The notes beneath the pieces were generated by a model. That model did not search any database. It was given only the letters and a program-made list of their open reading frames with translations, and was not told the DNA's origin. Shown in pieces: positions 33,230 through 46,100 of a stretch of 64,000 bases of DNA (within the stretch, counting starts at the first letter, position 1; every line of letters begins with the position of its first letter). The position numbers and the translations under genes were made by a program. The stretch covers positions 963 through 64,962 of the forward strand of contig NZ_JBCNMA010000005.1 in NCBI RefSeq assembly GCF_039595165.1, in the 5' to 3' direction. The stretch comes from Sphingomonas sp. (GTDB lineage: Bacteria; Pseudomonadota; Alphaproteobacteria; Sphingomonadales; Sphingomonadaceae).

Positions 33230-33385
33230 AATGGTGATCTTTCGTTCCTGATGGGGGGCGCCGCCCCGGCGCGATCAGGTTCGAAATTGCCACGAACACG
33301 GCGCTACGGCGGACGCGGCTCATGTTTAGGCAATCGCCGTTCCATGTAGAGTTGCACCGACCGTCACCGAACGACGCGGTTTCCA

Positions 33386-33398
33386 TGCAACCGTTGCA
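33386..33398. promoter_or_regulatory. Perfect palindrome TGCAAC-C-GTTGCA in the autotransporter / XRE divergent region
   Basis: 13-bp palindrome. The half-site GTTGCAC recurs at 33351-33357 and 33539-33545, and CTTGCAC at 33559-33565. A direct repeat GATACGTTC / GATACATTC sits at 33550-33558 and 33571-33579. Confidence 0.35.
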
Positions 33399-33746
33399 CG
33401 ACTTCCGGCACCATTCTCATGCGGTCTCGGGCCTGCTCGGCCATTTTGCGATGCGACAAAAGCAGGAGTCAGCTTGCTTTCGTGACGAACTGAGGATCCG
33501 GACGATGCATGCAACTCCGCATGCGCTGGTCCCTTCCTGTTGCACAGGCGATACGTTCCTTGCACGCAGTGATACATTCTTCGCGGTAATCGGCGGGATG
33601 CTTGCGTCGGGGTCGCCGAGTCGGCTCCAAGAGTTGCGGAGGCCATTGGCCGAGGTCGCAACCACCCGCCAACTCAGGCGCAAGGGACACTAGCCTTTTG
33701 CTCAAAGTCCAACTCCTGCCTTTCATGATCGTCGAGTGCGAGACAG

Positions 33747-34697
33747 ATGTCTGACGACTTCGCACAACGGCTTACGCTGGCGCTAAAGGCTCTTTCGATG
33801 AGCCGCGGCAGATTGGCCTCGGAAATGGGTGTCGATAAGTCGCTGGTCGGACGATGGGCATCGGGCAGCGTGCGGCCGTCCGCCCATAATCTGGAGCGGC
33901 TGACTCATTTCCTGGCGAAGAAGCGGCCCGGCCTGACGCTGCTGGACTGGGATCGCAGCTTGCCCGAGTTCGCGACGCTGTTTGGCGTGGCTGCCGTTGC
34001 CGAGGCCAAGGCAAGACACGGTACGGGGCTTTCCAGAGCGCTGCGAGAGATGGTGCGCAACGCGGTGGATGCGGACTTGACCGCCTATGAGGGCTTCTGG
34101 CGCACCACGCATGCCTCCGTGTTCCAACCCGGGTGCTTCTGCCAGCAACACGGGATTATCCGCATTGAGGACGATGAGTTGCACTTCGAGCTCGGCGCAG
34201 ATGGCATTCGCTACGGAGGGTCGATGTCCCCCGTGGAAGGTCAAGTGTTCGCCATCGCGAGCGACAGCGTGCGCCAAGTACCCTCATTTCTCATCTTGAA
34301 CGTCGTGCCCATGCCCAAGATTGTCTTGATGGACGGGATCTTGATCGCCGCCAGCAGCTCTCTGCGCATACCCTCCGCCTATTCGATCATCTTCGAGCGC
34401 GTTGCGGACCTCTCGGGACATCGAGCCGCCGATGAGGCGCATGCTGCGAACTTAATGCAACGGCCCGAGTTCGTGCACGACGACGACGTTGCAGAGGTGG
34501 TTCGACAACACTTGCTGCGCGACTTCGGCCCCAAGGCGGCCGACGAAGGCGGGGAGATGATGCTCACCGCTGCTCTGACGCCGCGGCTGGCGCAAATCAT
34601 GGCACTGTCCCGGATGGCTCAGGATTCACCTGTGAACGGCCTGTCGCTTGTTTCCTCGCAATCGGGGCTGCCTTCAGGGCAGCATCTCCAGGGCTGA
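33747..34697 (+). CDS. XRE-type HTH protein with an uncharacterised C-terminal domain of about 250 aa
   Basis: N-terminal HTH (RLTLALKALSMSRGRLASEMGVDKSLVGRWASGSVRPSAHNLERLTHFL). I do not recognise the remainder. GC is visibly lower than in the neighbouring genes. Confidence 0.7.
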   Translation: MSDDFAQRLTLALKALSMSRGRLASEMGVDKSLVGRWASGSVRPSAHNLERLTHFLAKKRPGLTLLDWDRSLPEFATLFGVAAVAEAKARHGTGLSRALREMVRNAVDADLTAYEGFWRTTHASVFQPGCFCQQHGIIRIEDDELHFELGADGIRYGGSMSPVEGQVFAIASDSVRQVPSFLILNVVPMPKIVLMDGILIAASSSLRIPSAYSIIFERVADLSGHRAADEAHAANLMQRPEFVHDDDVAEVVRQHLLRDFGPKAADEGGEMMLTAALTPRLAQIMALSRMAQDSPVNGLSLVSSQSGLPSGQHLQG

Positions 34698-34865
34698 GCG
34701 ATTTGCGAGTTGGCTGACGGCTAGGCGCTCTAATTCCGGCCATTCAGTCTCGATGCTGGCGATCGCGAAAGCCGACATTTGTGCAGGCAGCGACCCACCG
34801 GCAAGAATGCGTGGAAGCGCCAGTTCGCTTGCCGGTCATAGCGACGCAATTTTGTGCGGCGGCCT

Positions 34866-34880
34866 GTTACCATCCGTTAC
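34866..34880 (+). promoter_or_regulatory. Direct repeat GTTAC-N5-GTTAC (candidate OmpR-family response-regulator site)
   Basis: GTTACcatccGTTAC lies 45 bp upstream of ATG 34925. CATAGA follows 8 nt downstream. Same motif family as 38386-38430 and 41949-41974. Confidence 0.45.
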
Positions 34881-34924
34881 GCGAGGTTCATAGAACAGGC
34901 GACCAAGTCCGCTACCCGCGCCCT

Positions 34925-36232
34925 ATGGCACTCGATCCGAAGATCCTTCGTATCTCCGTCGTCGCGGCGATCCTGTCCCTTACCGCCTGCACAAATTCTG
35001 TTTACCCAGTGGGTCACAAGGGCGGAGCCGGCGCTTATGGTGCTGGATGGCCGGCCGTGCATGCCGACGCCGGCAACAGCGACTACCACTCGGGGCAGGG
35101 CGCGGCCAACCTGACGCTGGCCTGGTCGCGAACCTTCGACGGGATGATCAACCTGGGGCCTACAAGCGACGGCACCGGTCGCCTGTTCATCACGACCAGC
35201 GGTGCGGGCTGCCGCCTTCACGCGCTCGATCGGGCAACGGGCAGGTCGATCTGGTGTAGCGACGTGCTTGACAGGCTGGCAGTCGCCTCCTCGCCATTGA
35301 TCGATAGCACCGGCAATCTTTACCTTGGTGACGGTACGAAGATGCGCGCCTTCGACCGCCACGGCCGCGTGAGATGGCAAAAGGCAATCATCGGCGTGCC
35401 GCTTTCGGCACAGTTCACGCCAGCAGGAGACTTGCTCTTCATCACGCATGTGGGCGTGATCTATGTGCTCGACCGCTCCACCGGGAAAGCGGTCATCGCG
35501 CCGCATTCGATGGTCAACGCGCCGTCATTCAATCCCGCGGATGGCCTGGTCGCGTGCATGCGCGGGCTTGCCGAATGTCCGAGCGCGAACACGCCTGCCA
35601 TGGACATCCGGTCAGGCCGTTTCTACTTCACCTTCTGGGCGCCGAGCGCCGCCCGTTCAGGGGTTCGCGCAATGCGGATCACACGCGGTCTGCGTCCCGG
35701 CCTGATCGAGGAATGGACGAATGAAGGGCTGCCCGGTGGCAGTGCTTCGAGCCCCGATCTTTCAGCGGACGGCAAGCGTCTGTATCTAACCGACAATGAA
35801 GGGAGCCTGCACGCGCTCGACGCTGCGACCGGCAAATCCTTGTGGTCGGTGCCGATCGGATACCAGGCCGGGGGAAGCGTCTCATTGTCCCCCGAGGGCC
35901 TGATCCTGCCTGCCGGCGGGCGAGGGGCTGCGCTCATGGCCATTCGCGACCGCGGGGATCGCGGCGAGATCATCTGGCGCAAACCCGGCCTTCAGAATTT
36001 CGGGGTCGCCACGCAGGCGGCCGGATACCTTGCCTACCCTACCGTCAAGACCGGCAGAGGCACCGCCGATCTCATTGTGGTCGACACTCGAACCGGCGCC
36101 GAACTCGACCGCGAGCAGATCCCCGGAAAGCCGTATTTCACGGTCGGAACAACGATCGACCAGGACGGGACGGTGTATGTTCCGACGATCCGTGGTGCGC
36201 TTCACGCTTTCAGGCCGGCGGAATCCCGCTAG
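34925..36232 (+). CDS. PQQ-like (BamB-type) beta-propeller repeat lipoprotein
   Basis: Start at ATG 34925. Lipobox in MALDPKILRISVVAAILSLTAC. Repeated propeller blades (LHALDRATGRSIW, IYVLDRSTGKAV, LHALDAATGKSLW, IVVDTRTGAEL). The track ORF begins upstream at 34781. Confidence 0.75.
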   Translation: MALDPKILRISVVAAILSLTACTNSVYPVGHKGGAGAYGAGWPAVHADAGNSDYHSGQGAANLTLAWSRTFDGMINLGPTSDGTGRLFITTSGAGCRLHALDRATGRSIWCSDVLDRLAVASSPLIDSTGNLYLGDGTKMRAFDRHGRVRWQKAIIGVPLSAQFTPAGDLLFITHVGVIYVLDRSTGKAVIAPHSMVNAPSFNPADGLVACMRGLAECPSANTPAMDIRSGRFYFTFWAPSAARSGVRAMRITRGLRPGLIEEWTNEGLPGGSASSPDLSADGKRLYLTDNEGSLHALDAATGKSLWSVPIGYQAGGSVSLSPEGLILPAGGRGAALMAIRDRGDRGEIIWRKPGLQNFGVATQAAGYLAYPTVKTGRGTADLIVVDTRTGAELDREQIPGKPYFTVGTTIDQDGTVYVPTIRGALHAFRPAESR

Positions 36233-36248
36233 CTCCGGCCATTCAAAT

Positions 36249-37589
36249 TCAACCACCGGGCAATCGAACCAGCACGCGGAGGCCGCCCGTCGTGCGGTTC
36301 TCGATCTCGATTGCACCCCCATGGCTTGTCGCCAAGGCCTTCACAATCGACAGACCGAGGCCGACGCCGCCGCTGTGGCGGCCGCGGGACGGCTCGATAC
36401 GTTCAAACGGCGCAGTCAGCCGTGAGACGAGTTCGGAAGGCACACCCGGCCCGTTGTCGGTCACCGCGATCACCACGTCCTCACCTTCCCGACGGAGAGC
36501 GATGCGCGCTCGAGTGCCGTAGCGGATGGCGTTGTCGGTCAGATTGGCGAGAATCCGCCGAAAGGCGAGCGGTGCGCAACGGCAAAGGAGTGGTTCATCC
36601 CCCGCCGCAAGCCCGACATCGTCGCCGGCCTCGCGGCGCATCCGGACATAGTCGGCGGTCGCCGCCCTGGCATCGATGATGTCGGCGCCAGCTCCCTGCT
36701 TCGCTTCGGCGCGCGCGAACATCAGGATGTCATCGAGCAGCTGGCCCATCTCCTCGACGTCGCGGACCGCACGCTCGCGCTGGCCAGGGTCGGGAATATG
36801 ATCGGCGCGGAGCCGCAGCCGCGTCAGACAGGTGCGCAGGTCGTGCGCGATCGCGGCAAGCATCTGCGTGCGCTCGCCAACGAGACCGCCGATCCGCTGC
36901 TTCATCGAATTGAACGCCGCTGCGAGCGCCTGCACTTCGAGCGCGCCGCCAAGCTCGGCGTCAGGTGCGGCGACGTCGTCCCTGAAGGCTTCGGTCGCGC
37001 TGACCAGCTGGCGCACCGGCCGCACGACTTGCCAGAGCAGAGTGGCCAAAAGCGCCATGATGATCGCCGCGGCGACGAGCGCGACGGCAAAATAGCGCGA
37101 GGCAAGCACTTGGAGAACCAACGGGGCTCGCTCAACCGCCAGCACATGGCCATCCTCGAGTCCGACGAGCAACCGCACCGGCCCACGGCCCGTCTCGTCG
37201 AGCACGATCGAGGCGAGGAACCCGCCATCGCGCACCTGCAGCCGGAGCGGCCGGTCACCCAATGCCGCGGCATAACGACGGAACCTCGCCTCCAGGCGCG
37301 GCGCTGACCGCAGGTCGCCGTCAGTCACCTCATCGGGAAAGCGGTCCAGCAGCTCGGCGGTGATCGAGCCATTGCTTGCGGCGGCAACGACAAGCGGCCG
37401 CTCTGCGGGAGAAGCGTGCTCGACCGCCTCGGCGATCTCGCGCACGTCCTGCGGGTCGATGAGGCGAAGGACCATGGGGCGCCCGTCGGGCCACATCACC
37501 GCAGCGAGAATGGCGATCTGCAATGCGACGAGGCCGAGGAAGAACAGGGCTGCGACCCGGAACAACAAACTGTTGGCGAAGCGCCGCAT
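36249..37589 (-). CDS. Two-component sensor histidine kinase (2 TM, periplasmic loop, HAMP, HisKA, HATPase)
   Basis: H-box MLAAIAHDLRTCLTRL, N-box RRILANLTDNAIRYG, G-boxes VTDNGPGVP and GGVGLGLSIV. TM1 LFFLGLVALQIAILAAVMW, TM2 YFAVALVAAAIIMALLATLLW. Confidence 0.9.
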   Translation of the reverse strand: MRRFANSLLFRVAALFFLGLVALQIAILAAVMWPDGRPMVLRLIDPQDVREIAEAVEHASPAERPLVVAAASNGSITAELLDRFPDEVTDGDLRSAPRLEARFRRYAAALGDRPLRLQVRDGGFLASIVLDETGRGPVRLLVGLEDGHVLAVERAPLVLQVLASRYFAVALVAAAIIMALLATLLWQVVRPVRQLVSATEAFRDDVAAPDAELGGALEVQALAAAFNSMKQRIGGLVGERTQMLAAIAHDLRTCLTRLRLRADHIPDPGQRERAVRDVEEMGQLLDDILMFARAEAKQGAGADIIDARAATADYVRMRREAGDDVGLAAGDEPLLCRCAPLAFRRILANLTDNAIRYGTRARIALRREGEDVVIAVTDNGPGVPSELVSRLTAPFERIEPSRGRHSGGVGLGLSIVKALATSHGGAIEIENRTTGGLRVLVRLPGG

Positions 37590-37593
37590 GGAA

Positions 37594-38334
37594 TCAGCCG
37601 CTCACCCGGACGAGCGGCGCGAAGAGATAGCCGCCGCCGCGAACCGTCCTGATGATGGTCGGGGCTTTCGGATCGTCCTCGAGCTTGCGGCGCAACCGGC
37701 TCAACTGCACGTCGATCGTCCGGTCATAGGGCGCCGCGTCTCGTCCGCGCGTCCAATCCAGCAGCTGATCGCGCGTCAGCACACGCTGAGGATGGTCGAG
37801 TAGCGCAACGAGCAGATCGAACTCGCCTCCCGTCAGCTCGATGGCATGGCCCTGCGGATCGACGAGCTCGCGTGAACCGGCGTCGAGCTCCCATCCGGCG
37901 AATGCGTACCGACGTCCCGATACCGCTCGCGGGCGATGGGCATCGCGGGTTCGCCGAAGGACCGCGCGCACGCGCGCCACGAGTTCGCGCGGATTGAAGG
38001 GCTTGGGGAGATAGTCGTCCGCGCCGAATTCGAGGCCGAGGATGCGATCGATGTCGTCGCCCTTGGCCGTGACCATGATCACGGGGACGGGCACGGGCCC
38101 AGCCTGGAGCCGACGGCAGACCGACAGGCCGTCCTCTCCGGGCAGCATCAGGTCGAGCAGCACGAGATCGACCCGCCGTCGTGCCACGACCCGGTCAAGC
38201 TCCACCGCATCGTGGCAGAGTGCTACTTCGAAACCCTCTCGGACGAGCAGTTCGCCGACGAGCTCGGCGATTTCGACGTCATCCTCGACGACTGCGATGA
38301 AGTTTCGGACAGGCGTCGGGCTGACATCGGGCAT
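37594..38334 (-). CDS. OmpR/PhoB family response regulator
   Basis: Receiver (IAVVEDDVEIAELV...DLVLLDLMLPGEDG...VTAKG) and winged helix (LTGGEFDLLVALLDHPQRVLTRDQLL...IIRTVRGGGYLF). Stop lies 4 nt before the kinase start. Confidence 0.9.
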   Translation of the reverse strand: MPDVSPTPVRNFIAVVEDDVEIAELVGELLVREGFEVALCHDAVELDRVVARRRVDLVLLDLMLPGEDGLSVCRRLQAGPVPVPVIMVTAKGDDIDRILGLEFGADDYLPKPFNPRELVARVRAVLRRTRDAHRPRAVSGRRYAFAGWELDAGSRELVDPQGHAIELTGGEFDLLVALLDHPQRVLTRDQLLDWTRGRDAAPYDRTIDVQLSRLRRKLEDDPKAPTIIRTVRGGGYLFAPLVRVSG

Positions 38335-38385
38335 GGGATCGTGTGACCCTAGTTGGGGCGGCGCTTCAAGGCCGAACGGGCGCTT

Positions 38386-38430
38386 GTTACACTTCGTTGC
38401 CGTTCGTCACCGTCGTGACACCGCGAACTT
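38386..38430 (+). promoter_or_regulatory. Five 10-bp-phased direct repeats GTTAC/GTTGC/GTCAC/GTGAC/CTTAC
   Basis: Units start at 38386, 38396, 38406, 38415 and 38426, in the divergent spacer between the response regulator (start 38334, minus) and the RcnB-like gene (start 38517, plus). CATAGT follows 10 nt downstream. Confidence 0.45.
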
Positions 38431-38516
38431 ACCTGGCGCGCATAGTTTCCAGACGTCGAGCAGCGTGTCGGCGTTGCTCGAGCTGTCCCTGACGCTGGTT
38501 CAACGGAGAAAAGGTC

Positions 38517-38999
38517 ATGGTGCACCCGTCTGCCCCGATTGCCGCAGCCCATGGATTTCGGATCGTGCCCCCGCTCATCGGCGCAGTCGCCCTGTCAGCT
38601 GCCGCCATATCCCTCGTCGGCAGCGCAAAGGCTGCGCACTGGCATCGGCCAGCGGCGCACGCCACGCCGCCTGTGATCGCGATGGCATACTGGGATCGCC
38701 GCGCTCCCGGCTGGTGGCGCGGCCACCCATGGTTTGTTGGCTATCGCGGCGTGCGCCGGGGCTATTTCTTCGTTCCGGGTCGCGGCTATGTTCCGGTACC
38801 GCCAGCCTATTATGGCCGACCTTGGCGCGTTGGGCACGTCGTGCCGCCGGCGCTTCGCCGCTACCATGTCCACGATGTGGGCTTCTATCGCCTTCGGCCA
38901 GCGCCGCGGGGACATGTCTGGATTTACGTCGACAACAATATCGTGCTGATGCGGGTCGCGACCGGTGTGATCGTCGATGTGCTGCACCGCATATGGTGA
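38517..38999 (+). CDS. RcnB/YohN-like periplasmic protein
   Basis: GGAGAA RBS and hydrophobic N-terminus. C-terminal signature WRVGHVVPPALRRYHVHDVGFYRLRPAPRGHVWIYVDNNIVLMRVATGVIVDVL matches the RcnB-type pattern (W..G..LP......V.D.....L..PP.G..W...D.D.VL......I). Confidence 0.65.
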   Translation: MVHPSAPIAAAHGFRIVPPLIGAVALSAAAISLVGSAKAAHWHRPAAHATPPVIAMAYWDRRAPGWWRGHPWFVGYRGVRRGYFFVPGRGYVPVPPAYYGRPWRVGHVVPPALRRYHVHDVGFYRLRPAPRGHVWIYVDNNIVLMRVATGVIVDVLHRIW

Positions 39000-39121
39000 A
39001 GCACATCGAAAGGCGCGGCATGACGTTTGCGTACGATACACGCACGGGATTGTAGCGGGACTTTGGATGACGATCGGGACAGCGAAGGTGGATAGACAGG
39101 ACTGCATTTAGTTCGATGAGC

Positions 39122-40753
39122 TTAGCGCTCACCCCTTCGCGGCACGGTCTTGGCCCCAGGCGCGAAGCCCTTTGCCAGCGGATCGCCGGCGTACCAGGCG
39201 GGCCTCGGACCGTTCGCGGCGTTCTCGATGGTCAAGGTAATGTAGCGCGCCCATCGCGCGGCGACGTCCCAGCGGATCGGCAGCGAAGCCTCGTCCGATG
39301 GCTTGTGGTAGCTGTTCTGCTCATATGCGGTCCATGCCGGGTGTTCCGCGAGGCCGGTCTTTGCGTCGCGGGGACCAGGGTTCGGAAACAGCACGGGGAT
39401 ACCAAGGCGTAGAAACGGGTATTGGTCGCTCAATGCCAGGTTGCCGCGTTCGGGGATCGGATCGGGCACATGCCGGGCGCCCGTGGCTGCCGCTGCGATC
39501 GCCGATGCGACCCCGAGCGTCGAGTGATCGGCACCAAGCGCGACGATATCGGTGTAGTCGTGCCAGGCCATCAGTCCGTCGACGCTGATCGCTGCCACGA
39601 TGCTGCTGCGCTCCACGGTCGGAAAGGTTGCGAAGTAGTCCGCTCCGATCAGGCCTTTCTCCTCGCCGGTCGTGGCTACAAACAAGATTGAGCGCTTGGG
39701 CTTGGCCGCTCTTAGTAGTCGGGCTGCTTCGAGCAGGACCGCGACTCCGCCGGCGTTGTCGATCGCGCCATTGTAGATGCTGTCGCCATTGACGGGTTTG
39801 CCGACGCCGACATGGTCGAGATGCGCAAGAACGACGACATGCTCGTTCCGCAGCGCCGGATCGCTGCCGGCGATGCGGCCGATGACATTGGGCGAGGACG
39901 TATCCTCGTGTCGCGACCGGCGCTCGAGCGCGATCCGCGCATTGAATGCAAAGCCTCTGGGCGGGTTCGCGTCCGCCTCGTTGTAGATCCGGGCCAGATC
40001 CAGGTTCGCCGAGGCGAATAGCCGCGAAGCCATGTGCGGGGAGAGTGAAATCGTCGCTTGTACCGCAGGTATATGTTCGGCGCCGTTGGCGCGCCAGTGG
40101 ACTGCGGGCAGTGGCCGGAACTGACGCGTGAGCGACCAAGGCGAAAATCGCTCACGGGCCGGGCTCTTGATGGTGACGATCGCAGCTGCGCCTGCGGCGG
40201 CCGCCATCCGCTCCTTCTGCTGAACCCAGCTGTAATGCGCGCGAAGCGCGCCCGCCATGCTCGCTGGCGCGCCTTCGATCACCACCACCGCTTTCCCGCT
40301 CACATCGAGACCGGCATAGTCGTCGAAACCGAGTTCCGGAGCGGTGATCCCCCAGCCGGCGAACACGAGCGGCAGGTCGAGTCGCTCCTCGCGCGATCGC
40401 GGGCTCGCATCGATTGCGACGGTATCGCCATTCGCCAGTGCGATCGTCTCGTCCGCAAGCTTGAGGTCGAACGCAATCGCCTCGAGGCTGCGACGGCGAA
40501 GCGGAACGGGCTGAAGCCATTGCTCGGTCCCAGCAGGTTCAAGCCCGGCCTGGAGGAAATTCGAAGCGACATATTGCGCGGCGATGTCGTAGCCGCGAGA
40601 ACCTGTGTCGCGACCTTCGAGGAGATCATGCGCGAGGAACACGGTGTGCGCCTTGAGCGCGGCGGCCGACGGAGCATCTGAGAAGCGCGCCAACGCTGAT
40701 GTGGCAACCGCCGCGGATGCGACCAGGGCGATCGTCAGTGCTGAACGGTTCAT
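39122..40753 (-). CDS. Secreted M28 family zinc aminopeptidase with PA domain
   Basis: Start at ATG 40753 (AAGGAG upstream). Signal peptide MNRSALTIALVASAAVATSALA. M28 motifs VVLAHLDHVG, NGAIDNAGGVAVLLEAARLL, TGEEKGLIGADYF. Confidence 0.85.
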   Translation of the reverse strand: MNRSALTIALVASAAVATSALARFSDAPSAAALKAHTVFLAHDLLEGRDTGSRGYDIAAQYVASNFLQAGLEPAGTEQWLQPVPLRRRSLEAIAFDLKLADETIALANGDTVAIDASPRSREERLDLPLVFAGWGITAPELGFDDYAGLDVSGKAVVVIEGAPASMAGALRAHYSWVQQKERMAAAAGAAAIVTIKSPARERFSPWSLTRQFRPLPAVHWRANGAEHIPAVQATISLSPHMASRLFASANLDLARIYNEADANPPRGFAFNARIALERRSRHEDTSSPNVIGRIAGSDPALRNEHVVVLAHLDHVGVGKPVNGDSIYNGAIDNAGGVAVLLEAARLLRAAKPKRSILFVATTGEEKGLIGADYFATFPTVERSSIVAAISVDGLMAWHDYTDIVALGADHSTLGVASAIAAAATGARHVPDPIPERGNLALSDQYPFLRLGIPVLFPNPGPRDAKTGLAEHPAWTAYEQNSYHKPSDEASLPIRWDVAARWARYITLTIENAANGPRPAWYAGDPLAKGFAPGAKTVPRRGER

Positions 40754-40872
40754 ACCCACTCCTTTACCGGTGACGTCGCGAAACGCAGATTCCGCAGCGC
40801 GAGTCGTGCGGCGCACGGAAGTTGTTCGGCATGGAGGGGATGTCCCCTTACTGGATATGCGCGGGGAGATCG

Positions 40873-41298
40873 TCAGCGGCGCGTCTTGCGCTGCGCCTTG
40901 ACCGCCTCGACCTCGTCGCGAGAGAGTCGGCCGTCCCCATCGCGGTCGCCGCGCTCGAATACTGGCATCGGCGCGGCTTCAAGTTCGGCCCGCGTGATGC
41001 GTCCGTCCTGGTCTGCATCGGCGGCGGACAGCAGCGACATCAGCCGGTCGACCGCATCGGGTTTGAACCGCGCAAGACGGCCGAAATCGGCACGTGTGAC
41101 GCTGCCGTCCTTGTTGCGGTCCATGCGGTCGAACTGGGCGGCGCGCGCCGCGGCATATTCCTCGCGCGTGATATAGCCGTCGCGGTCAGCGTCGGCCTTG
41201 TCGAGGATGTCGCCGCCTGCGCGTGCGCGGCCGAATTGCGCGGAAGCGGGGAGCGCCAGGGAAAGGCCGAGCGCTGCCAGGGCAAATATGCGGATCAT
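40873..41298 (-). CDS. Secreted protein with four canonical EF-hand Ca2+-binding loops
   Basis: Signal peptide MIRIFALAALGLSLALPASAQ. EF loops DADRDGYITREE, DRNKDGSVTRAD, DADQDGRITRAE, DRDGDGRLSRDE. Confidence 0.85.
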   Translation of the reverse strand: MIRIFALAALGLSLALPASAQFGRARAGGDILDKADADRDGYITREEYAAARAAQFDRMDRNKDGSVTRADFGRLARFKPDAVDRLMSLLSAADADQDGRITRAELEAAPMPVFERGDRDGDGRLSRDEVEAVKAQRKTRR

Positions 41299-41311
41299 GA
41301 GGGTCTCCGAG

Positions 41312-41354
41312 ACAAAAAGGCGCAGCCGCGACGAGGAGGCCGGGTCGCGGCTGC
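41312..41354 (-). terminator. Intrinsic-terminator-like hairpin between the secreted Arg/Gly-rich gene and the EF-hand gene
   Basis: Minus strand reads GCAGCCGCGAC (41354-41344), 11-nt loop, GTCGCGGCTGC (41332-41322), then GCCTTTTTGTCTC. Stem is 11 bp perfect. The EF-hand RBS (GGAGAC) and ATG follow immediately. Confidence 0.55.
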
Positions 41355-41369
41355 CAGTTTGGGGGGGCT

Positions 41370-41864
41370 TCAGTTGCCGGGATAAGGCACAGTGCCCGAG
41401 CGCGTGCGGGTCGTGCCGTCGATGCGCGTGCGGGTCGCGTTGTAGGTCGCGGTGCCGTCGCCATTGTTGGTGGCGGTCACGTTGCGGCTCGAGCTCTTGC
41501 CATTGTGATATTGCCGGCTGGCGCTGGCCGAGTAGGCGCCATCACCCCAGCTGCGTTGGCGCGTGTCGTCCCATCCGCGCCCGCCATTGGTGGTGAACGA
41601 GCGATCCATCTGGCTGCGGCCGGGCTCGCGATCGACCTGGCGCTGACGGCGATAGCCATAACCGCCGGCGGTCTGGACCGAGCGCCGGACGCTGACATCG
41701 CCGCCGTCGCGCCGGACATGGCGCCGGCTGATCGCGCTGCCGCCGAACGGGCCGCGAACCTTGGCGATATGGCCGTGGCGACGCTCAGCCATCGCCGGGG
41801 TCGAAAGGATCGCGCCGCCAAGCATGGCGCACAAAGCGAGGATTGCGATCGGGGGTCGTTTCAT
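41370..41864 (-). CDS. Secreted Arg/Gly/Thr/Ser-rich low-complexity protein, unknown function
   Basis: Start at ATG 41864 (GGAGA upstream). Signal peptide MKRPPIAILALCAMLGGAILSTPAMA. The mature part (GGYGYRRQRQVDREPGRSQMDRSFTTNGGRGWDDTRQRSWGDG...TATYNATRTRIDGTTRTRSG) has no motif I recognise. Confidence 0.6.
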   Translation of the reverse strand: MKRPPIAILALCAMLGGAILSTPAMAERRHGHIAKVRGPFGGSAISRRHVRRDGGDVSVRRSVQTAGGYGYRRQRQVDREPGRSQMDRSFTTNGGRGWDDTRQRSWGDGAYSASASRQYHNGKSSSRNVTATNNGDGTATYNATRTRIDGTTRTRSGTVPYPGN

Positions 41865-41948
41865 GGGCAAGTCTCCATACGCAGGCCGGCGAACCGCGCC
41901 GGACAGGGCGCTTGTGCCGAGAAGGCTTGTCGGGATCACGAACCGCGC

Positions 41949-41974
41949 GAAACGAAATGTAACGAAGCGTAACG
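41949..41974 (-). promoter_or_regulatory. Three 10-bp-phased direct repeats CGTTAC-N4-CGTTAC-N4-CGTTTC
   Basis: Plus strand reads GAAACGaaatGTAACGaagcGTAACG. On the minus strand it points toward ATG 41864, 85 bp away. Confidence 0.45.
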
Positions 41975-42123
41975 GGACCTGCGCGAGGTTGGAGAACTAC
42001 CGCCCCGCGGCTTTCATTGTTGCATTGGACTAATAGGATTATCGAGACGGTAGTTCGGGCGTCAGGGACAGGTCAGCGCGACCGATCGCAGTATTTGCAT
42101 AACTGACAAGCGGCGCCATGCTT

Positions 42124-42795
42124 TCATTCCAACGACCAGAAAGTCGAGGTAAAGTCATGCCGCTCGAACACCTCCGCCACCTCTGCAGCTGATCGCTTAC
42201 GCCAGGGTTTGCGGATGTAGTCGCCATACCAGTCCTGAGCGAACAGCCACATGCGTTCCAGAGGTACAATTGCGCCCTTAGGCAAGTCGTGGCGGCGGCA
42301 CCATTTGTCAACATCGTCTTCGGCTCGAAAGGGCTGGAAGCTCGCGCAGGCATGAATCACGTTATCCCACCATAGGCGAGGCGGGGTTGAGAGATGGAAG
42401 AGCAAATGATCCGCAATCAGTTCACCGTCACGTATCTGCACTTCGATTGACTCACGTTCGCCGCCTATTCGTGTAAAAATATCCGCGTCACCTCCGACCG
42501 CCGAGGCAACGCCAAGAGCGCAATACAAGCAGTTGGCCCACCAGCCCTTTTCACCGATTTCTACCCAACATGAGCCGGGCGACAGAGCGAACGGATGCAC
42601 CACCCAGGGACGCGTCGTACCGGGATGTAAAAGCAATGCATTTGCTCTTCCGAGCGCAGTCAACGCGGCCTCGCATTCGCCGATCGAGCAACCTGATCGA
42701 GACGCAAGCTCTGCGATGGAGGGCGCGTGCTCCAACTCCGCAATACTCTTGGTGAGCTCGCCTCTCACCCTCGCTTCAAGCTGAGTAAGCGCCAT
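42124..42795 (-). CDS. Alkylmercury-lyase (MerB)-like family protein, orphan
   Basis: Start at ATG 42795 (AAGGGGA upstream). N-terminal winged-helix-like segment. Cys-containing segments WWANCLYCALGVASAVG and NVIHACASFQPFRAEDDVDKW resemble the two catalytic-Cys regions of MerB-family proteins. GC visibly lower than in the flanks. Confidence 0.55.
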   Translation of the reverse strand: MALTQLEARVRGELTKSIAELEHAPSIAELASRSGCSIGECEAALTALGRANALLLHPGTTRPWVVHPFALSPGSCWVEIGEKGWWANCLYCALGVASAVGGDADIFTRIGGERESIEVQIRDGELIADHLLFHLSTPPRLWWDNVIHACASFQPFRAEDDVDKWCRRHDLPKGAIVPLERMWLFAQDWYGDYIRKPWRKRSAAEVAEVFERHDFTSTFWSLE

Positions 42796-43145
42796 ATCTG
42801 TCCCCTTCGTCGTTTGCCGAACTGACGGTGCAGGCAGCACACGCCTTAATAGCGGGCCATTCAACGGATTCGGGGCATCCTGAAAGCCGGCCGCTCAGGT
42901 GCCCAGGATCGTCGGGAAGCAGGCCGCCTGCAGCTTTACCTCAATCAATCACGCGTGCTTGCCTTTCTGCGCTCGTTCCGGTCGAGACATGCCGAAGACA
43001 GGTTAGCTGGCAAACAGGACGAACGCTGCCATCAACAGTAGCCTCCAAGGAGCCACGGGACCTGAAAGATCAGCCCCGGCCGCTCGGGTTTGATGGGATA
43101 TGGCGGCTGTGATCTGTCGCAGGATCCAGCGCACTAAGTACCCCT

Positions 43146-46100
43146 TTATTGGTCAACCACGGCGATCACATTGTCGTCACCGTTGCGGTCCACATATTTG
43201 TTGTAGGGATCGATCCCGGCAAACGCAGGTTTGCGCTTGCTGACAATGCGGATTTCCTGGGTTCCCGACCGGACCGGCCGTCGTTCTATCAAAACGACGT
43301 CCTTGGCCGCGAACGCCCCATAGCCCGGATTCTGGTCGAACAGGCCGATATCAATCTGGTTCGCAAGGGCAGCCTTGCTTTCCTTGCCCTTGCCATCGGC
43401 GTAAAACTTGTCCGCTTCCACCGTCAGCACGGTCTCGAACGTGCCGTCGGGAAGCTTCTTGGTCGCCGCACCCCTGGCTTTCAGGTCATACAGCGTGATG
43501 CGGGCGAACAGGTCTTCGACCAGCTGCCGTTCCTCGGCATTGCGCGCGAGCGCACGGAAGCCGTCGACAAGATCGGTCGAACGCGGATAGGGCGCGCCCT
43601 TGAAGCGATACTGATTGAGCTTCGCACGCAGCATGGCGTTGACGCGATCCTCGCCGAGCCGGTCCTGCAGCAGGTACACGACCAGCGATCCCTTGCGGTA
43701 ATGGATATAGCCCTGGTTCTCGACGCGCTCGAGCGGGAGTTCCTCGATCGCCTCGCTGCCGCGGTTGCGCAGATAATTGTCGAGCTCGTACTTGAGGAAG
43801 CGTCGTATCTTGTCCTCGCCATAGAGCTGCTTCATCACCATCAGCGCCGAATATTGCGCCATGGTCTCGACCCAGATCGTGCCGCCCTGCATGTCGGCCG
43901 AGATCACCTGATGCGCCCAATATTGGTGCGCGAGCTCGTGCGCGGTGACATAGGTCACATAGTCGATCTTGTCGGGATCGGTATTGTTGGCGAGGAAGCC
44001 GATCGATTCCGAATAGGGCATGGTGCCGGCGAAGGCCTGGGCGAAGCTCGCATAGCCCGGGAACTCGATCACGCGCGCATGGTCGAACTGATAGGGTCCG
44101 AAATTGGCCTGGTAATAGGCGAGCGACGCCTTGAGCGCGGCCAGCATGCGATCGACGTTGAAGGGATGCTTGCGGTCATAGAAGACCGAAAGGCGGACGC
44201 CGTTCGCGTCGATCGCCTTCTCGGCATAATCGGCCGACTGGATCGAGAAGAAGGCGAGGATCGGCGTGTCCGAGACGAACCGTGCGGTGCGGCGGCCGCC
44301 ATGGGTCGAATCGGCGACCTTGCGCCCCGGCGCGATCGGGGTTTGCCCGGCATCGGTGGTGATGGTGATATCGCTCTTCACCCAGGCGACGTTGCCGACA
44401 TAGTTGCGCCGCTGCGCCGAGCGGTCCTCGAGCTTGGCCGGCCGCAGCTCGGCGGGCAGGCCGTATTTGCGGCGCTTGACGCGGTCGGTGAGCAGACCCT
44501 GGCGATCCATGCCGATCGCGGGCGCGATCTCGAAATTGTTGAGGAAGGTGCCGTTGCCGACCAGGCGCGTGTCGGCATCGTTGGCGGGCAGGCCGCGGGT
44601 CGCGCGAGTCACCGTGAACTTGACCGTACCGGCGGCGCCCGGCGCCAGCGGCGTCGGGAAGCGGTAGATGCGATAGTCGAAGTCCTTGTCCTCCATCGCA
44701 AGGCTGGCACCCGGCACTTCGAGTGCGGCGAGCTTGCTTTGCCGATCGGGGAAGCGGACATGGAGGTCGCGCAGCGGCGCGCCGGTGTCGTTGACGAAGC
44801 GATATTCGCCAGTGGTCGTCATGCGGCGCTCGCCCGGATGCAGGTCGACGTTCAGGCGGATGTCGGTCAGCGAGGGCTGGGCGACCTTCTCATATTTGAG
44901 GTATTTCTTCTCATAGGCGGCGAGCTGGGCCTCGACATCGTCGCGTGTGCGATAGTCGTTGAGGACGTTCATATTATAGTAGAGCCAGCCGCCGGTCGCG
45001 ACGGCGATCGCCAGCGCCGCACCGAGCACCACGCCCGGCACGCCCCTGAGCCGCTGTGCGACGCGCCTCAGCCGCGGCCGCAACCGCGTTTCGGTGCCGC
45101 GCCGCCACAGCAGGTGCGCGAGCACGGCGAGCATGATCGCCACCGCGCCCCAATAGAGTCGCAGCCACCAGCCGGTCGCGCCGCCGACCTGATCGCCGTT
45201 CATGTCCGAGAAGCGAACGGTGCCGGTCGCGCCGTAATTGTAGAGCGGATGCTCGAATCCGATCGTGTTGAGCGTGATCGTGGCCACCAGGTAGATCACC
45301 ATGATGCCCCAGCCGGCATATTTGTTGGGGCTGATCGCTTGCACGAACACCGCGAGCACGGCGAGGATCGCCATGTCGATGGTCAGCGGCACCAGATACC
45401 AGGCGAGATACTGGCCCAACTCCAGATTATCGACGCCGCGGCCGAGCTGGACGAGGATCGCCGCGATCGCGCTGATCGCCAGCGTAGCGAACAGCACCAG
45501 CGTCACCGCCAGCGTCTTGGGCACCATATAGGCCCAATTGGGCAGCGCGGTCGCATCGATGATCTCGTGCATCTTGCGCTCGCGGTCGCGCCAGACGAGT
45601 TCGCCGGCATAATAGATGGCGATGATGATCGGGATGATCCCGAACATGCCGAGCAGGTCCTGGACGACCACGAAGGTCAGCGGGCGCGAGGGCGTGCCGT
45701 AGAGCTCGTTGGCGAACATCAGCCCGCCGACCGTGTTGAACAGCCCGATCATCAGCAGCACGGCGAAGGCGGGGCTCTTGAAGACGAGGCGCATCTCGAA
45801 CTTGCAGCGCTGCCACAGCTGGGCGCCGGCCGCCGCCTCGGGGCGGACCGGCGGCAGCGTCTCGACCAGCGCCGGCGCCGTCGCCGCGAGCCTTGCCGCC
45901 TTCTTCGCCTGCTTCCGGAGCTTGCGCGCCGAGACGCCCTTCTCCGAGAAGCTGAAGCGCCAATAGGCGACGAGCAGCGCGACGAGCCCGACCCCGATCC
46001 AGATCAGCCGGTTGGCGAGCAGCGTGCCGGTGAAGGCCGGCATCATCGTGTTGCTCTCGGCCGCGGTCCAGTAACGCGTCACGTTGGAGAAGGCGGCGAG

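What the first reader, a model, noticed from the sequence alone, without database searches (positions are those of the whole stretch)
34866..41974. Phased (C)GTTAC direct repeats in front of three exported-protein genes around an OmpR-type two-component system: candidate undescribed envelope/cation regulon
Four copies were seen. (i) 34866-34880: GTTAC-catcc-GTTAC on the plus strand, 45 bp upstream of the ATG of a beta-propeller lipoprotein. (ii) 38386-38430: five units at 10-bp phase (GTTAC/GTTGC/GTCAC/GTGAC/CTTAC) in the divergent spacer between the response-regulator gene and an RcnB-like gene. (iii) 41949-41974: read on the minus strand, CGTTAC-gctt-CGTTAC-attt-CGTTTC, 85 bp upstream of a secreted Arg/Gly-rich protein gene that heads the EF-hand and M28 peptidase gene string. 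(iv) A weaker CGTTTC-gcga-CGTCAC on the minus strand at 40770-40785, just before the M28 peptidase. Every copy points the same way as the downstream gene. Sites (i) and (ii) are followed 8-10 nt later by CATAG. A perfect GTTAC-N5-GTTAC is expected about 0.12 times in 2 x 64 kb under uniform base composition, and less in GC-rich DNA. Tandem repeats spaced one helical turn apart are the classic OmpR/PhoB binding architecture. The only such regulator in the window (37594-38334) sits in the middle of these sites. All putative targets are exported and have a metal or cation flavour: RcnB-like, 4xEF-hand, Zn peptidase, beta-propeller. The logic recalls metal-responsive envelope regulons such as BqsRS/CarRS in Pseudomonas or UzcRS in Caulobacter. 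The gene set is different, and I know of no description of this module.
Basis: partly seen in the sequence, partly recalled or inferred. Interest (0 to 1): 0.7.

Follow-up and report, generated by a model that had tools for sequence, protein, structure and literature searches.

The report
OmpR-box regulon around a Sphingomonas two-component system
The phased GTTAC repeats are real and are most likely classical OmpR-type binding boxes for the neighbouring EnvZ/OmpR-like regulator, which appears to control its own operon and a small, evolutionarily conserved set of exported proteins; this is a new regulon of a well-known kind of system, not a new kind.

Summary
Three of the four reported sites hold up: 34866-34880 (+), 38386-38410 (+) and 41949-41974 (-). 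They are the only GTTAC-N5-GTTAC matches with at most 1 mismatch in the window (4 matches; 0.33 expected). The fourth site (40770-40785) does not hold up.

The motif is not new. Its 10-bp unit, TTCGTTAC(A), is the classical E. coli OmpR box (GTTACATTTTGTTACAT). The local regulator's DNA-binding domain is closest to OmpR, and its recognition helix is nearly identical.

GTTACA is the most enriched hexamer upstream of 80 homologous regulator genes (72 seen, 1.3 expected). A matrix built from those genomes alone ranks the three window sites first, second and third. The half-site changes together with the recognition helix across the family.

In 11 loci found through graded kinase homologues (Sphingomonas, Sphingobium, Sphingopyxis, Caulobacter, Niveispirillum, Chelativorans) the boxes recur. 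They lie upstream of the regulator operon, of an operon for a secreted basic beta-protein plus a 4xEF-hand protein, of a beta-propeller lipoprotein gene and, in some loci, of RcnB-like, GDSL-autotransporter and SCP2 genes. The M28 peptidase has no box of its own.

The signal, cation or otherwise, is unknown. Verdict: a real, conserved OmpR-type regulon, a new member of a known kind, of moderate interest.

The parts
34866..34880 (+). OmpR-box site i: two half-sites, GTTAC-N5-GTTAC, pointing toward the beta-propeller lipoprotein gene
   Evidence: Exact match. Matrix score 15.5, third best in the window. Conserved at the same distance (43-44 nt from the ATG) in L081 and L082. A box is also present upstream of the orthologue in L084, L087 and L088, and is degenerate in L085.
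34925..36232 (+). Beta-propeller (PQQ_2/BamB-like) lipoprotein gene, 435 aa; candidate target
   Evidence: Pfam PQQ_2, E = 1.7e-18. Lipobox LTAC. An orthologue lies convergent with the kinase gene in L081, L082, L084 and L085, and nearby in L087 and L088.
36249..37589 (-). Sensor histidine kinase, 446 aa: EnvZ-like transmitter with a distinct periplasmic domain
   Evidence: HAMP, HisKA and HATPase_c domains. Best NCBIfam model is EnvZ (165 bits, cut-off 415), and only residues 172-444 align. Graded homologues from 96% to 39% identity. The periplasmic domain is conserved. Its predicted fold is mixed alpha/beta with pLDDT 72 and no specific PDB match.
37594..38334 (-). OmpR-family response regulator, 246 aa, in an operon with the kinase (4-nt gap)
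   Evidence: Response_reg and Trans_reg_C domains. Best NCBIfam model is OmpR (263.9 bits, cut-off 331). 50% identical to E. coli OmpR (the E. coli sequence was checked). The DNA-binding domain is closest to OmpR among solved structures. Recognition helix: RTIDVQLSRLRRKLE.
38386..38432 (+). OmpR-box site ii. Core GTTAC-N5-GTTGC-N5-GTCAC (38386-38410), then weaker GTGAC (38415) and CTTAC (38428). Inverted relative to the regulator gene; points toward the RcnB-like gene.
   Evidence: Matrix score 17.0, second best in the window. In the 11-sequence alignment A3, 10 of the 12 invariant columns fall within a 14-nt stretch of the box. Mean pairwise identity is 0.77 in the box and 0.26-0.53 in the flanks. 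The position is fixed at 50-52 nt from the regulator's ATG in 8 of 10 loci.
38517..38999 (+). RcnB-domain exported protein, 160 aa; possible target sharing the divergent spacer
   Evidence: Pfam RcnB, E = 8e-12. The same divergent arrangement occurs in L084. In Caulobacter sp. L092 an RcnB gene is followed by the basic-protein and EF-hand genes on the same strand, divergent from the regulator.
41949..41974 (-). OmpR-box site iii: three half-sites, CGTTAC / CGTTAC / CGTTTC, at 10-bp phase; a fourth degenerate unit (GGTTCG) follows
   Evidence: Two overlapping pattern matches. Matrix score 21.0, the best in the window. Conserved 93-95 nt from the ATG in L081, L082, L083 and L085. Identity is 0.86-0.87 in the box and 0.29-0.48 upstream.
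41370..41864 (-). Secreted basic Arg/Gly/Ser/Thr-rich protein ('RG'), 164 aa; first gene of the target string
   Evidence: No Pfam or NCBIfam hit. Mature pI 11.5. The predicted structure is ten antiparallel beta strands, pLDDT 81, with no significant PDB match. A homologue sits next to the EF-hand gene in most of the related loci.
40873..41298 (-). Secreted protein with four EF-hands, 141 aa; second gene of the target string
   Evidence: Pfam EF-hand_5/_1/_6/_7. Canonical DxDxDG loops. An orthologue lies next to the two-component system in L002, L003, L081-L083, L085-L088, L092 and L094.
39122..40753 (-). M28 (PA-domain) peptidase, 543 aa. Membership doubtful: possibly co-transcribed with the RG and EF-hand genes; no box of its own.
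   Evidence: Pfam Peptidase_M28, E = 6e-39. The claimed site iv scores -3.6 and is not conserved. In L083 and L084 the gene follows a MarR gene. No terminator-like site was found in the 119-nt gap.

Best explanation
The window comes from a Sphingomonas genome and carries an EnvZ/OmpR-like two-component system: the regulator at 37594-38334 and the kinase at 36249-37589.

Proposed mechanism. The kinase senses an unknown signal through its periplasmic domain and phosphorylates the regulator. The phosphorylated regulator binds head-to-tail to tandem 10-bp units with the core (TTC)GTTAC(A), as OmpR does.

Three arrays of such units lie in the window:
- one in front of the beta-propeller lipoprotein gene;
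- one in front of the operon that starts with a secreted basic beta-protein and a 4xEF-hand protein (the M28 peptidase may be read through);
- one in the regulator's own upstream region, shared with a divergent RcnB-like gene.

What is shown: the sites exist, they are non-random, they are conserved in position and sequence upstream of orthologous genes, they match the OmpR box, the DNA-binding domain is OmpR-like, and helix and half-site covary across the family.

What is inferred: binding by this particular regulator, activation rather than repression (suggested because the boxes point with transcription, as at ompF and ompC), autoregulation, and the signal.
For: - Non-random phased dimers occur only at the three intergenic places.
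- The E. coli OmpR consensus is GTTACATTTTGTTACAT (PMC5438342). The Bordetella RisA ChIP motif is GTTACA (PMC11019879).
- The regulator's best NCBIfam model is OmpR. Its DNA-binding domain scores 83 bits against OmpR structures; the next family, RstA, scores 64. The helix RTIDVQLSRLRRKLE compares with RSIDVQISRLRRMVE in OmpR.
- Across 80 homologous loci, 13 of the 14 perfect GTTAC-N5-GTTAC matches in 1.11 Mb fall in the 200 bp upstream of the regulator gene. GTTACA is the top enriched hexamer there: 72 seen, 1.3 expected, in 45 of 80 loci.
- The matrix derived from those loci has the consensus TTGTTACAATTTGTTACAAATT. It ranks the three window sites 1-3 among all positions on both strands of the 64-kb window.
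- In loci found through kinase homologues (96-46% identity), the top matrix hits lie upstream of the regulator, RG, beta-propeller, RcnB, GDSL-autotransporter and SCP2 genes. Distances to the ATG are nearly constant, and conservation peaks on the boxes.
- Helix and half-site covary. D-x-Q helices go with GTTAC (45 of 92 half-sites; GAAAC 2 of 92). D-x-L helices go with GAAAC (18 of 40). D-T-Q helices go with G(T/A)CAC (6 of 10). L003, with helix DVMVGKVR, has ATTAC sites.
Against: - There is no binding or expression experiment.
- Transcription starts are unknown, so the position of the boxes relative to -35/-10 cannot be given. The sigma-70 consensus scan found nothing at these promoters.
- Individually, the matrix scores of sites i and ii (15.5 and 17.0) lie within the range of the best hits in shuffled windows (mean 12.3, maximum 18.3). 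The case rests on their combination, placement and conservation.
- The regulator-proximal box is inverted relative to the regulator gene, so its effect on that operon is unclear.
- The beta-propeller box is degenerate in L085.
- Closely related loci conserve whole promoters, which weakens the footprint at 85-96% identity.
- The covariation counts are not corrected for phylogeny, and the sites were picked with a GTTAC-biased matrix.
- The regulator and the kinase both score below NCBI's curated OmpR and EnvZ cut-offs.
Confidence: 0.78

Rival explanations
1. The boxes are real operator sites, but they are read mainly or jointly by another OmpR-family regulator encoded elsewhere in the genome. 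This could be a paralogue with the same recognition helix, or a partner such as CenR, which shares sites with EssR in Brucella.
For: In Brucella ovis the OmpR-like EssR and the non-cognate CenR bind 33 shared ChIP peaks (PMC10592609). Only 64 kb of this genome is visible, so paralogues cannot be excluded. OmpR-family half-sites are short and degenerate.
Against: A box sits next to the regulator gene in most of about 95 loci from several orders. The half-site sequence also tracks the recognition helix of the adjacent regulator.
Confidence: 0.12
2. The local regulator binds the boxes but acts as a repressor or in mixed mode: for example autorepression at the inverted proximal box, with activation only at some promoters. 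This differs from the simple activator model.
For: The regulator-proximal box is inverted and lies only about 50 nt from the ATG in 8 of 10 loci. A conserved CTTGA(A/G), which could be a -35 element, lies between the box and the regulator gene. E. coli OmpR both activates and represses (PMC5438342).
Against: At the RG and beta-propeller promoters the arrays point with transcription and lie upstream of the start codon by 44-95 nt. That resembles the activating ompF/ompC arrangement: the F1 and C1 boxes are on the same strand as their genes. No data settle the matter either way.
Confidence: 0.25
3. The repeats are chance matches, or remnants of a duplicated promoter segment with no present function.
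For: Sites ii and iii share extended similarity (GTTACnCTTCGTTnCnnTTCGT), which is compatible with duplication of an ancestral spacer. Single-site matrix scores overlap the shuffled maxima.
Against: No shuffle out of 100 reaches the observed count. All sites are intergenic. The boxes are conserved islands while the flanks diverge, down to 57% kinase identity and in other orders. An independently derived matrix recovers them.
Confidence: 0.03

Closest known systems
EnvZ/OmpR of Escherichia coli and Salmonella (also Bordetella RisA)
   Same: - OmpR-family regulator in an operon with an EnvZ-like kinase.
- 50% identity to OmpR, with a near-identical recognition helix.
- Binding units are tandem 10-bp repeats with a GTTACA core.
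- The boxes point with transcription, as F1 does at ompF and C1 at ompC.

   Different: - Both proteins score below NCBI's equivalog cut-offs.
- The kinase's periplasmic domain does not align with EnvZ.
- The visible targets are not porins. They are a basic beta-protein, an EF-hand protein, a beta-propeller lipoprotein and an RcnB-like protein.
- The signal is unknown.
EssR-EssS of Brucella ovis (alphaproteobacterial OmpR/EnvZ-like envelope-stress system; PMC10592609)
   Same: - Alphaproteobacterial OmpR-like regulator with an EnvZ/CpxA-like kinase carrying two transmembrane helices.
- A regulon rich in envelope and secreted proteins.
- Described as widely conserved in the class.
   Different: - Orthology could not be tested because no Brucella sequence was available.
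- The word 'motif' does not occur in the text held for that paper.
- EssR works together with CenR, and no CenR-like gene is visible in this window.
- No EF-hand or RG partners are mentioned in the regulon sections read.
UzcR-UzcS of Caulobacter crescentus
   Same: - An OmpR-family regulator that mainly activates genes for exported and envelope proteins, including metallopeptidases.
- Its half-site CATTAC resembles (C)GTTAC, and also the ATTAC-N5-ATTAC sites of locus L003.
(PMC8963506)
   Different: - The reported motif is CATTAC-N6-TTAA, not a direct repeat.
- uzcR (CCNA_02842) and uzcS (CCNA_02845) are not adjacent, whereas here the two genes are 4 nt apart.
- No C. vibrioides kinase appears among the 120 listed homologues.
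- Sequence orthology is untested.
FeuN-FeuP-FeuQ of Sinorhizobium meliloti
   Same: [quoted passage not shown] That FeuN is a small periplasmic protein is from my own knowledge. This is a possible analogy for the RG, EF-hand and RcnB genes found here.
   Different: The candidate FeuP motif is TTCA-N7-TTCA, not GTTAC-N5-GTTAC. No homology between FeuN and the proteins here was tested.
BqsRS/CarSR of Pseudomonas aeruginosa
   Same: A cation-responsive (Fe2+, Ca2+) OmpR-family system whose targets include a beta-propeller protein, CarP. This comes from my own knowledge and was not checked here.
   Different: The reported box is TTAAG-N6-TTAAG (own knowledge), which differs from the GTTAC box. Orthology was not tested, and no evidence here bears on cation sensing.

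Membership tests
OmpR/PhoB-family response regulators (winged-helix) | N-terminal receiver domain plus C-terminal Trans_reg_C domain | tested here: met
   Pfam Response_reg E = 5e-28 and Trans_reg_C E = 1.5e-24.
EnvZ/OmpR sensu stricto | Regulator reaches the curated OmpR equivalog score (NCBIfam NF007005, cut-off 331 bits) | tested here: not met
   263.9 bits. OmpR is the best of 98 models but the score is below the cut-off.
EnvZ/OmpR sensu stricto | Kinase reaches the curated EnvZ equivalog score (NF007004, cut-off 415 bits), including the sensor domain | tested here: not met
   165.1 bits, and only residues 172-444 align; the periplasmic domain is unrelated. JGI nevertheless names several homologues EnvZ.
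EnvZ/OmpR sensu stricto | OmpR-type recognition helix and DNA-binding domain | tested here: met
   The DNA-binding domain scores 83 bits against OmpR structures, with RstA next at 64. Helix RTIDVQLSRLRRKLE versus RSIDVQISRLRRMVE.
EnvZ/OmpR sensu stricto | Target sites are tandem 10-bp units with a GTTACA-like core | tested here: met
   Published consensus GTTACATTTTGTTACAT.
EnvZ/OmpR sensu stricto | Controls the major porin genes in response to osmolarity | not testable with these tools
   No porin gene lies next to a box in the window. Expression data would be needed.
EssRS (Brucella-type alphaproteobacterial system) | Orthology to BOV_1472/BOV_1473 | not testable with these tools
   No Brucella sequence was obtainable.
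EssRS (Brucella-type alphaproteobacterial system) | OmpR-like regulator plus an EnvZ/CpxA-like kinase with two transmembrane helices, in an alphaproteobacterium | tested here: met
   Description of the family in PMC10592609.
UzcRS (Caulobacter) | Recognition motif CATTAC-N6-TTAA | tested here: not met
   The window sites are direct repeats, GTTAC-N5-GTTAC. The UzcR motif is taken from PMC8963506.
UzcRS (Caulobacter) | Regulator and kinase genes separated by other genes (CCNA_02842 and CCNA_02845) | tested here: not met
   Here the two genes are 4 nt apart. They are also adjacent in all the loci found through kinase homologues.
UzcRS (Caulobacter) | Sequence orthology to UzcR/UzcS | not testable with these tools
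   The UzcR sequence in the supplement of PMC12864828 is truncated. Park et al. 2017 is not held.
BqsRS/CarSR (Pseudomonas) | Box TTAAG-N6-TTAAG | tested here: not met
   The window boxes are GTTAC-N5-GTTAC. The BqsR motif is recalled from memory and was not verified here.

The most novel reading that the evidence does not exclude
This is a conserved alphaproteobacterial signalling module, seen in Sphingomonadales, Caulobacterales, a Rhodospirillales member and a Rhizobiales member. An EnvZ/OmpR-like pair is tied to a secreted, very basic ten-stranded beta-meander protein of unknown fold family and to a periplasmic 4xEF-hand protein. These two proteins may be more than targets: they could act as periplasmic co-sensors or feedback modulators of the kinase, linking periplasmic Ca2+ (or another cation) to envelope remodelling, by analogy with FeuN. 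In addition, the family may provide a readable recognition code, in which the helix position after D-V (Q, L, M) and the V/T position specify the half-site (GTTAC, GAAAC, ATTAC, GNCAC).
Probability: 0.2. Interest if true: 0.6.

Novelty: new member of a known kind. Interest (0 to 1): 0.36.

Why it matters
- It gives a concrete, testable operator and regulon for an OmpR-like system in sphingomonads and their relatives. I found no motif or target set for this system in the searched literature.
- It ties three families of small exported proteins with no tested function to one regulator: the basic beta-meander protein, the 4xEF-hand protein and the RcnB-like protein. That makes their function, possibly periplasmic calcium or cation handling, open to experiment.
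- The covariation between recognition helix and half-site across about 80 genomes could help predict operators for OmpR-clade regulators in uncultured bacteria.
- It does not reveal a new kind of regulatory mechanism.

Tried and rejected
- **Plasmid origin.** A megablast of 34700-42100 against PLSDB found only one 199-bp response-regulator match.
- **Source genome.** The exact regulator protein is not on record. The closest kinase, at 96%, is from a Sphingomonas sp. MAG.
- **Rfam.** A search of 33000-43500 at E <= 1 gave no match.
- **Generic repeat finder.** On 34700-42100 it returned only low-identity GC-rich noise.
- **Sigma-70 and terminator scan.** Nothing was found at the target promoters, so the promoter geometry is unresolved.
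- **Site (iv) and the CATAG element.** Rejected, or not conserved.
- **Other matrix hits of 10 or more.** These are at 33151, 29065, 5497, 58070 and 19487. They lie in coding sequence, in an AT-rich spacer or in an implausible orientation, and were not adopted.
- **UzcR orthology.** The synthetic-gene sequences in the PMC12864828 supplement are truncated and Park et al. 2017 is not held, so this is untested.
- **FeuP.** Its candidate motif, TTCA-N7-TTCA, does not match.
- **Kinase sensor domain.** The model is only moderately confident (pLDDT 72), and Foldseek gives no informative match beyond generic kinase architecture.
- **RG protein.** No significant PDB match.
- **E. coli validation of the matrix.** It finds F1 (6.4) and C1 (9.5) among the top 8 hits of 4-kb loci, and a CTTACAAATTGTTGC box 17 nt upstream of ompR (13.1). 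The scores are modest in AT-rich DNA, so this is only weak support.

Full report
**Observation**

I read 34700-42300 directly.

- Site (i) is GTTAC-catcc-GTTAC at 34866-34880 (+). There are 44 nt to the ATG of a 435-aa lipoprotein gene.
- Site (iii), on the minus strand from 41974 to 41949, reads CGTTAC-gctt-CGTTAC-attt-CGTTTC. There are 84 nt to the ATG at 41864.
- Site (ii) has units starting at 38386, 38396, 38406, 38415 and 38428. The spacings are 10, 10, 9 and 13 bp, so only the first three units are strictly phased.

GTTAC-N5-GTTAC with at most one mismatch occurs four times in the 64-kb window, all at these three places. The shuffled expectation is 0.33, and none of 100 shuffles reached four. 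CGTTAC alone is not enriched, so the signal is the phased dimer.

The weak site (iv) at 40770-40785 fails. It scores -3.6 with an independently derived matrix, and nothing like it lies upstream of the orthologous peptidase genes.

**Genes**

Pfam and NCBIfam give the following.

| Coordinates | Strand | Product |
|---|---|---|
| 34925-36232 | + | PQQ_2/BamB-like beta-propeller lipoprotein |
| 36249-37589 | - | HAMP-HisKA-HATPase kinase |
| 37594-38334 | - | receiver + Trans_reg_C regulator |
| 38517-38999 | + | RcnB-domain protein |
| 39122-40753 | - | M28/PA peptidase |
| 40873-41298 | - | protein with four EF-hands |
| 41370-41864 | - | 164-aa protein with no family hit ('RG') |

All five non-signalling proteins start with signal-peptide or lipobox-like sequences. 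No second regulator of this type is in the window.

Homologues of the kinase at 96% and 90% identity come from Sphingomonas sp.. The window is therefore sphingomonad DNA. It is not a known plasmid.

**What the motif is**

OmpR is the regulator's best NCBIfam model (263.9 bits). The next models are VirG (201), MtrA (199) and PhoB (193). EnvZ is the kinase's best model. Both scores are below the curated equivalog cut-offs, and the kinase aligns with EnvZ only from the HAMP domain onward.

Among all solved OmpR/PhoB-family DNA-binding domains, OmpR itself is the closest named family (83 bits). An unnamed response regulator (6zwt) scores marginally higher at 84.6 bits, and RstA follows at 64. The full-length protein is 50% identical to E. 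coli OmpR. I verified that sequence from NC_000913.3. The recognition helix is RTIDVQLSRLRRKLE here and RSIDVQISRLRRMVE in OmpR.

The published E. coli OmpR repeat is GTTACATTTTGTTACAT (PMC5438342). The ChIP-seq motif of the Bordetella OmpR orthologue RisA is GTTACA (PMC11019879). The 10-bp unit in the window, (T/C)TTCGTTAC(A/G), is therefore the classical OmpR box. It is not an undescribed architecture.

**Independent comparative test 1: distant homologues**

A scan of one genome per species with the regulator returned 80 loci at 48-74% identity, mostly Alpha- and Betaproteobacteria.

- Perfect GTTAC-N5-GTTAC occurs 14 times in the 1.11 Mb retrieved. Thirteen of those lie in the 200 bp upstream of the regulator gene, which is 1.4% of the DNA.
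- An unbiased hexamer count puts GTTACA first: 72 occurrences against 1.3 expected, in 45 of 80 loci.
- An EM-refined matrix from these upstream regions has the consensus TTGTTACAATTTGTTACAAATT.
- The window was not used to build the matrix. Scanning the window with it ranks site iii (21.0), site ii (17.0) and site i (15.5) first, second and third among all positions on both strands of the 64-kb window.
- Single scores of 15-17 are within reach of the best hits in shuffled sequence (maximum 18.3). The argument therefore rests on all three top hits being the intergenic sites around the regulator.

**Independent comparative test 2: orthologous loci**

The kinase search gave a graded series of homologues. 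I fetched 11 loci.

| Locus | Organism or source | Kinase identity |
|---|---|---|
| L081 | Sphingomonas sp. MS122 | 90% |
| L082 | metagenome contig | 89% |
| L083 | metagenome contig | 85% |
| L084 | metagenome contig | 78% |
| L085 | metagenome contig | 67% |
| L086 | Sphingobium sp. SYK-6 | 62% |
| L087 | metagenome contig | 60% |
| L088 | Sphingopyxis sp. | 57% |
| L092 | Caulobacter sp. | 46% |
| L093 | Niveispirillum | 59% |
| L094 | Chelativorans | 58% |

The regulator and kinase genes are always adjacent. The same accessory genes recur around them in different arrangements.

- The RG and EF-hand pair lies in tandem upstream of the system (L081, L085), a few kb away (L082, L083), or divergent from it (L086-L088, and also Phenylobacterium L002 and Sphingomonas L003).
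- The beta-propeller lipoprotein gene is convergent with the kinase gene in L081, L082, L084 and L085, and lies nearby in L087 and L088.
- An RcnB-like gene is divergent from the regulator in L084 and L092. In L092, RcnB, RG and EF-hand genes follow one another on the same strand, divergent from the regulator.
- A GDSL autotransporter, an SCP2 protein or an EF-hand plus beta-lactamase pair takes the divergent or nearby position in other loci.

The top matrix hits in these 17-21-kb loci fall upstream of exactly these genes. The distances are nearly constant:

- 93-95 nt from the second half-site to the RG start codon in five loci;
- 50-52 nt to the regulator start codon in eight of ten loci;
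- 43-44 nt for the beta-propeller gene in the closest relatives.

Alignments show the boxes as conserved islands. In the 11-sequence regulator-upstream alignment, 10 of the 12 invariant columns fall within a 14-nt stretch of the box. Mean pairwise identity is 0.77 in the box and 0.26-0.53 around it. In the RG promoter, identity is 0.86-0.87 in the box and 0.29-0.48 upstream. The beta-propeller box is degenerate in L085.

**Whose site is site (ii)?**

The regulator-proximal array keeps the same position and the same orientation, inverted relative to the regulator gene, whatever lies upstream:

- an EF-hand gene in tandem (L081, L085);
- a MarR gene (L082);
- the M28 gene (L083);
- a divergent RcnB, RG or GDSL-autotransporter gene.

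It is therefore primarily a feature of the regulator's own upstream region. Where a divergent gene exists, as in the window, the array also points toward that gene. A conserved CTTGA(A/G), about 17-20 nt on the regulator side of the box, could be a -35 element. This is inference only.

**Cognate pairing**

Across the roughly 95 loci, the half-site found upstream of the regulator gene changes with that regulator's recognition helix.

| Helix type | Predominant half-site | Count |
|---|---|---|
| D-x-Q | GTTAC | 45 of 92 half-sites (GAAAC 2 of 92) |
| D-x-L | GAAAC | 18 of 40 |
| D-T-Q | G(T/A)CAC | 6 of 10 |
| DVMVGKVR (locus L003 only) | ATTAC-N5-ATTAC | two sites |

This is what one expects if each regulator reads the box next to its own gene. 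The counts are not corrected for shared ancestry, and the sites were picked with a GTTAC-centred matrix. I treat this as strong but not formal support.

**Mechanism proposed**

The kinase detects an unknown periplasmic signal. Its sensor domain is conserved among orthologues but is unrelated to EnvZ's. It is predicted as a mixed alpha/beta domain at moderate confidence, with no informative structural match.

The phosphorylated regulator would bind as head-to-tail dimers to two to four phased half-sites. In E. coli the F1 and C1 boxes lie on the same strand as ompF and ompC. The window's arrays at the beta-propeller and RG promoters have the same polarity, which favours activation.

Transcription starts are unknown, and the consensus promoter scan found nothing there. 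I therefore cannot say whether the boxes replace the -35 element.

The M28 peptidase may be read through from the EF-hand gene. The gap is 119 nt and contains no terminator-like site. It has no box of its own, and in relatives it follows a MarR gene.

**Comparison with known systems**

- The system works like EnvZ/OmpR and uses its box. It fails the curated equivalog thresholds and has a different sensor domain and different visible targets.
- The closest described alphaproteobacterial system is EssR-EssS of Brucella. EssR is an OmpR-like envelope-stress regulator that shares ChIP sites with CenR (PMC10592609). The word 'motif' does not occur in the held text of that paper. I could not test orthology.
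- UzcRS of Caulobacter has a similar kind of regulon (exported proteins, metallopeptidases) and a CATTAC half-site. Its reported motif is CATTAC-N6-TTAA, and its two genes are not adjacent (PMC8963506). I could not obtain the UzcR sequence.
- The candidate FeuP motif differs.
- I found no paper describing the RG/EF-hand/beta-propeller gene set or this system in sphingomonads.

**Verdict**

It is wrong or unproven in the details: the novelty of the motif, the M28 site, the CATAG element and cation sensing.

This is a new member of a known kind. Its moderate interest comes from the conserved link to a periplasmic EF-hand protein and to an uncharacterised basic beta-protein, and from the helix/half-site covariation.

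Noticed in passing
window 41370-41864 (-): The 'Arg/Gly-rich' secreted protein is not predicted to be disordered. AlphaFold2 with 12 sequences gives pLDDT 81 (above 90 over about residues 70-160) for ten consecutive antiparallel beta strands joined by NG/DG/GG turns. Foldseek finds no PDB hit with E < 0.05; the best TM-score is 0.50, to a porin wall fragment. The strands are polar, the mature pI is 11.5 and GRAVY is -1.36, so it is not a membrane barrel. The family is narrow and evolves fast. The 190-aa and 130-aa versions in other genera share only N- or C-terminal blocks.
   Followed up: partly
loci L001-L094, 200 bp upstream of the regulator genes: Across the OmpR-like clade the recognition helix and the upstream half-site change together. 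D-x-Q helices go with GTTAC, D-x-L with GAAAC, D-T-Q with G(T/A)CAC, and DVMVGKVR (L003) with ATTAC. This could be a readable specificity code. It is not corrected for phylogeny.
   Followed up: partly
window about 41870-41935 (-), the 5' region of the RG gene: The stretch between the box and the start codon is almost as conserved as the box. It contains an invariant CGACAAG and a hairpin (CCGGCG-cggtt-CGCCGG) about 20 nt before a GGAGA Shine-Dalgarno sequence. The stem pairs never vary in the five sequences, so the structure is unproven. There is no Rfam match.
   Followed up: partly
window 33700-43000: Genes in this stretch have lower third-position GC (0.73-0.80) than the flanking genes (0.82-0.91), and 42001-44000 drops to 58.5% GC. 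The flanking HTH_3 gene (33747-34697) and the MerB-like gene (42124-42864) are absent from the loci fetched through kinase homologues (L081-L088, L092-L094). This suggests local rearrangement or acquisition.
   Followed up: no
L083 5777-8956, L084 4067-8143; parts also in L082 and L087: A second conserved neighbour set recurs beside the two-component system in several sphingomonad loci: an S41 peptidase, an aminoglycoside-N-acetyltransferase-like (Antibiotic_NAT) gene, a MarR gene and the M28 peptidase. It carries no OmpR-type box. In the window only the M28 gene of this set is present.
   Followed up: no
L087 15701-18322; L088 and L092, equivalent genes: A block made of TetR, a TonB-dependent receptor, a beta-lactamase-fold protein and DUF1254/DUF1214 lies near the system in three genera. 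In L087 a strong box (18.5) sits upstream of the receptor gene and points toward it.
   Followed up: no
window 33151-33172 (+): The fourth-best matrix hit in the window (14.8, CGGACACAGTGCGATGCAAAGT) lies inside the N-terminal coding part of the 1344-aa ORF 29195-33229 (-), on the opposite strand. It is probably chance.
   Followed up: no
literature (Caulobacter vibrioides): The periplasmic EF-hand protein CaBP is CCNA_02838 (PMC13171946). This is four locus tags from uzcR, CCNA_02842 (PMC8963506). A link between an OmpR-family system and a secreted EF-hand protein may therefore also exist at the UzcRS locus. It could not be examined without the genome.
   Followed up: no
L091 (E. coli MG1655, ompR upstream) 4602-4623 (-): The best matrix hit in the 6-kb ompR locus is CGCTTACAAATTGTTGCGAACC. 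It lies 17 nt upstream of the ompR start codon, on the same strand as ompR.
   Followed up: no
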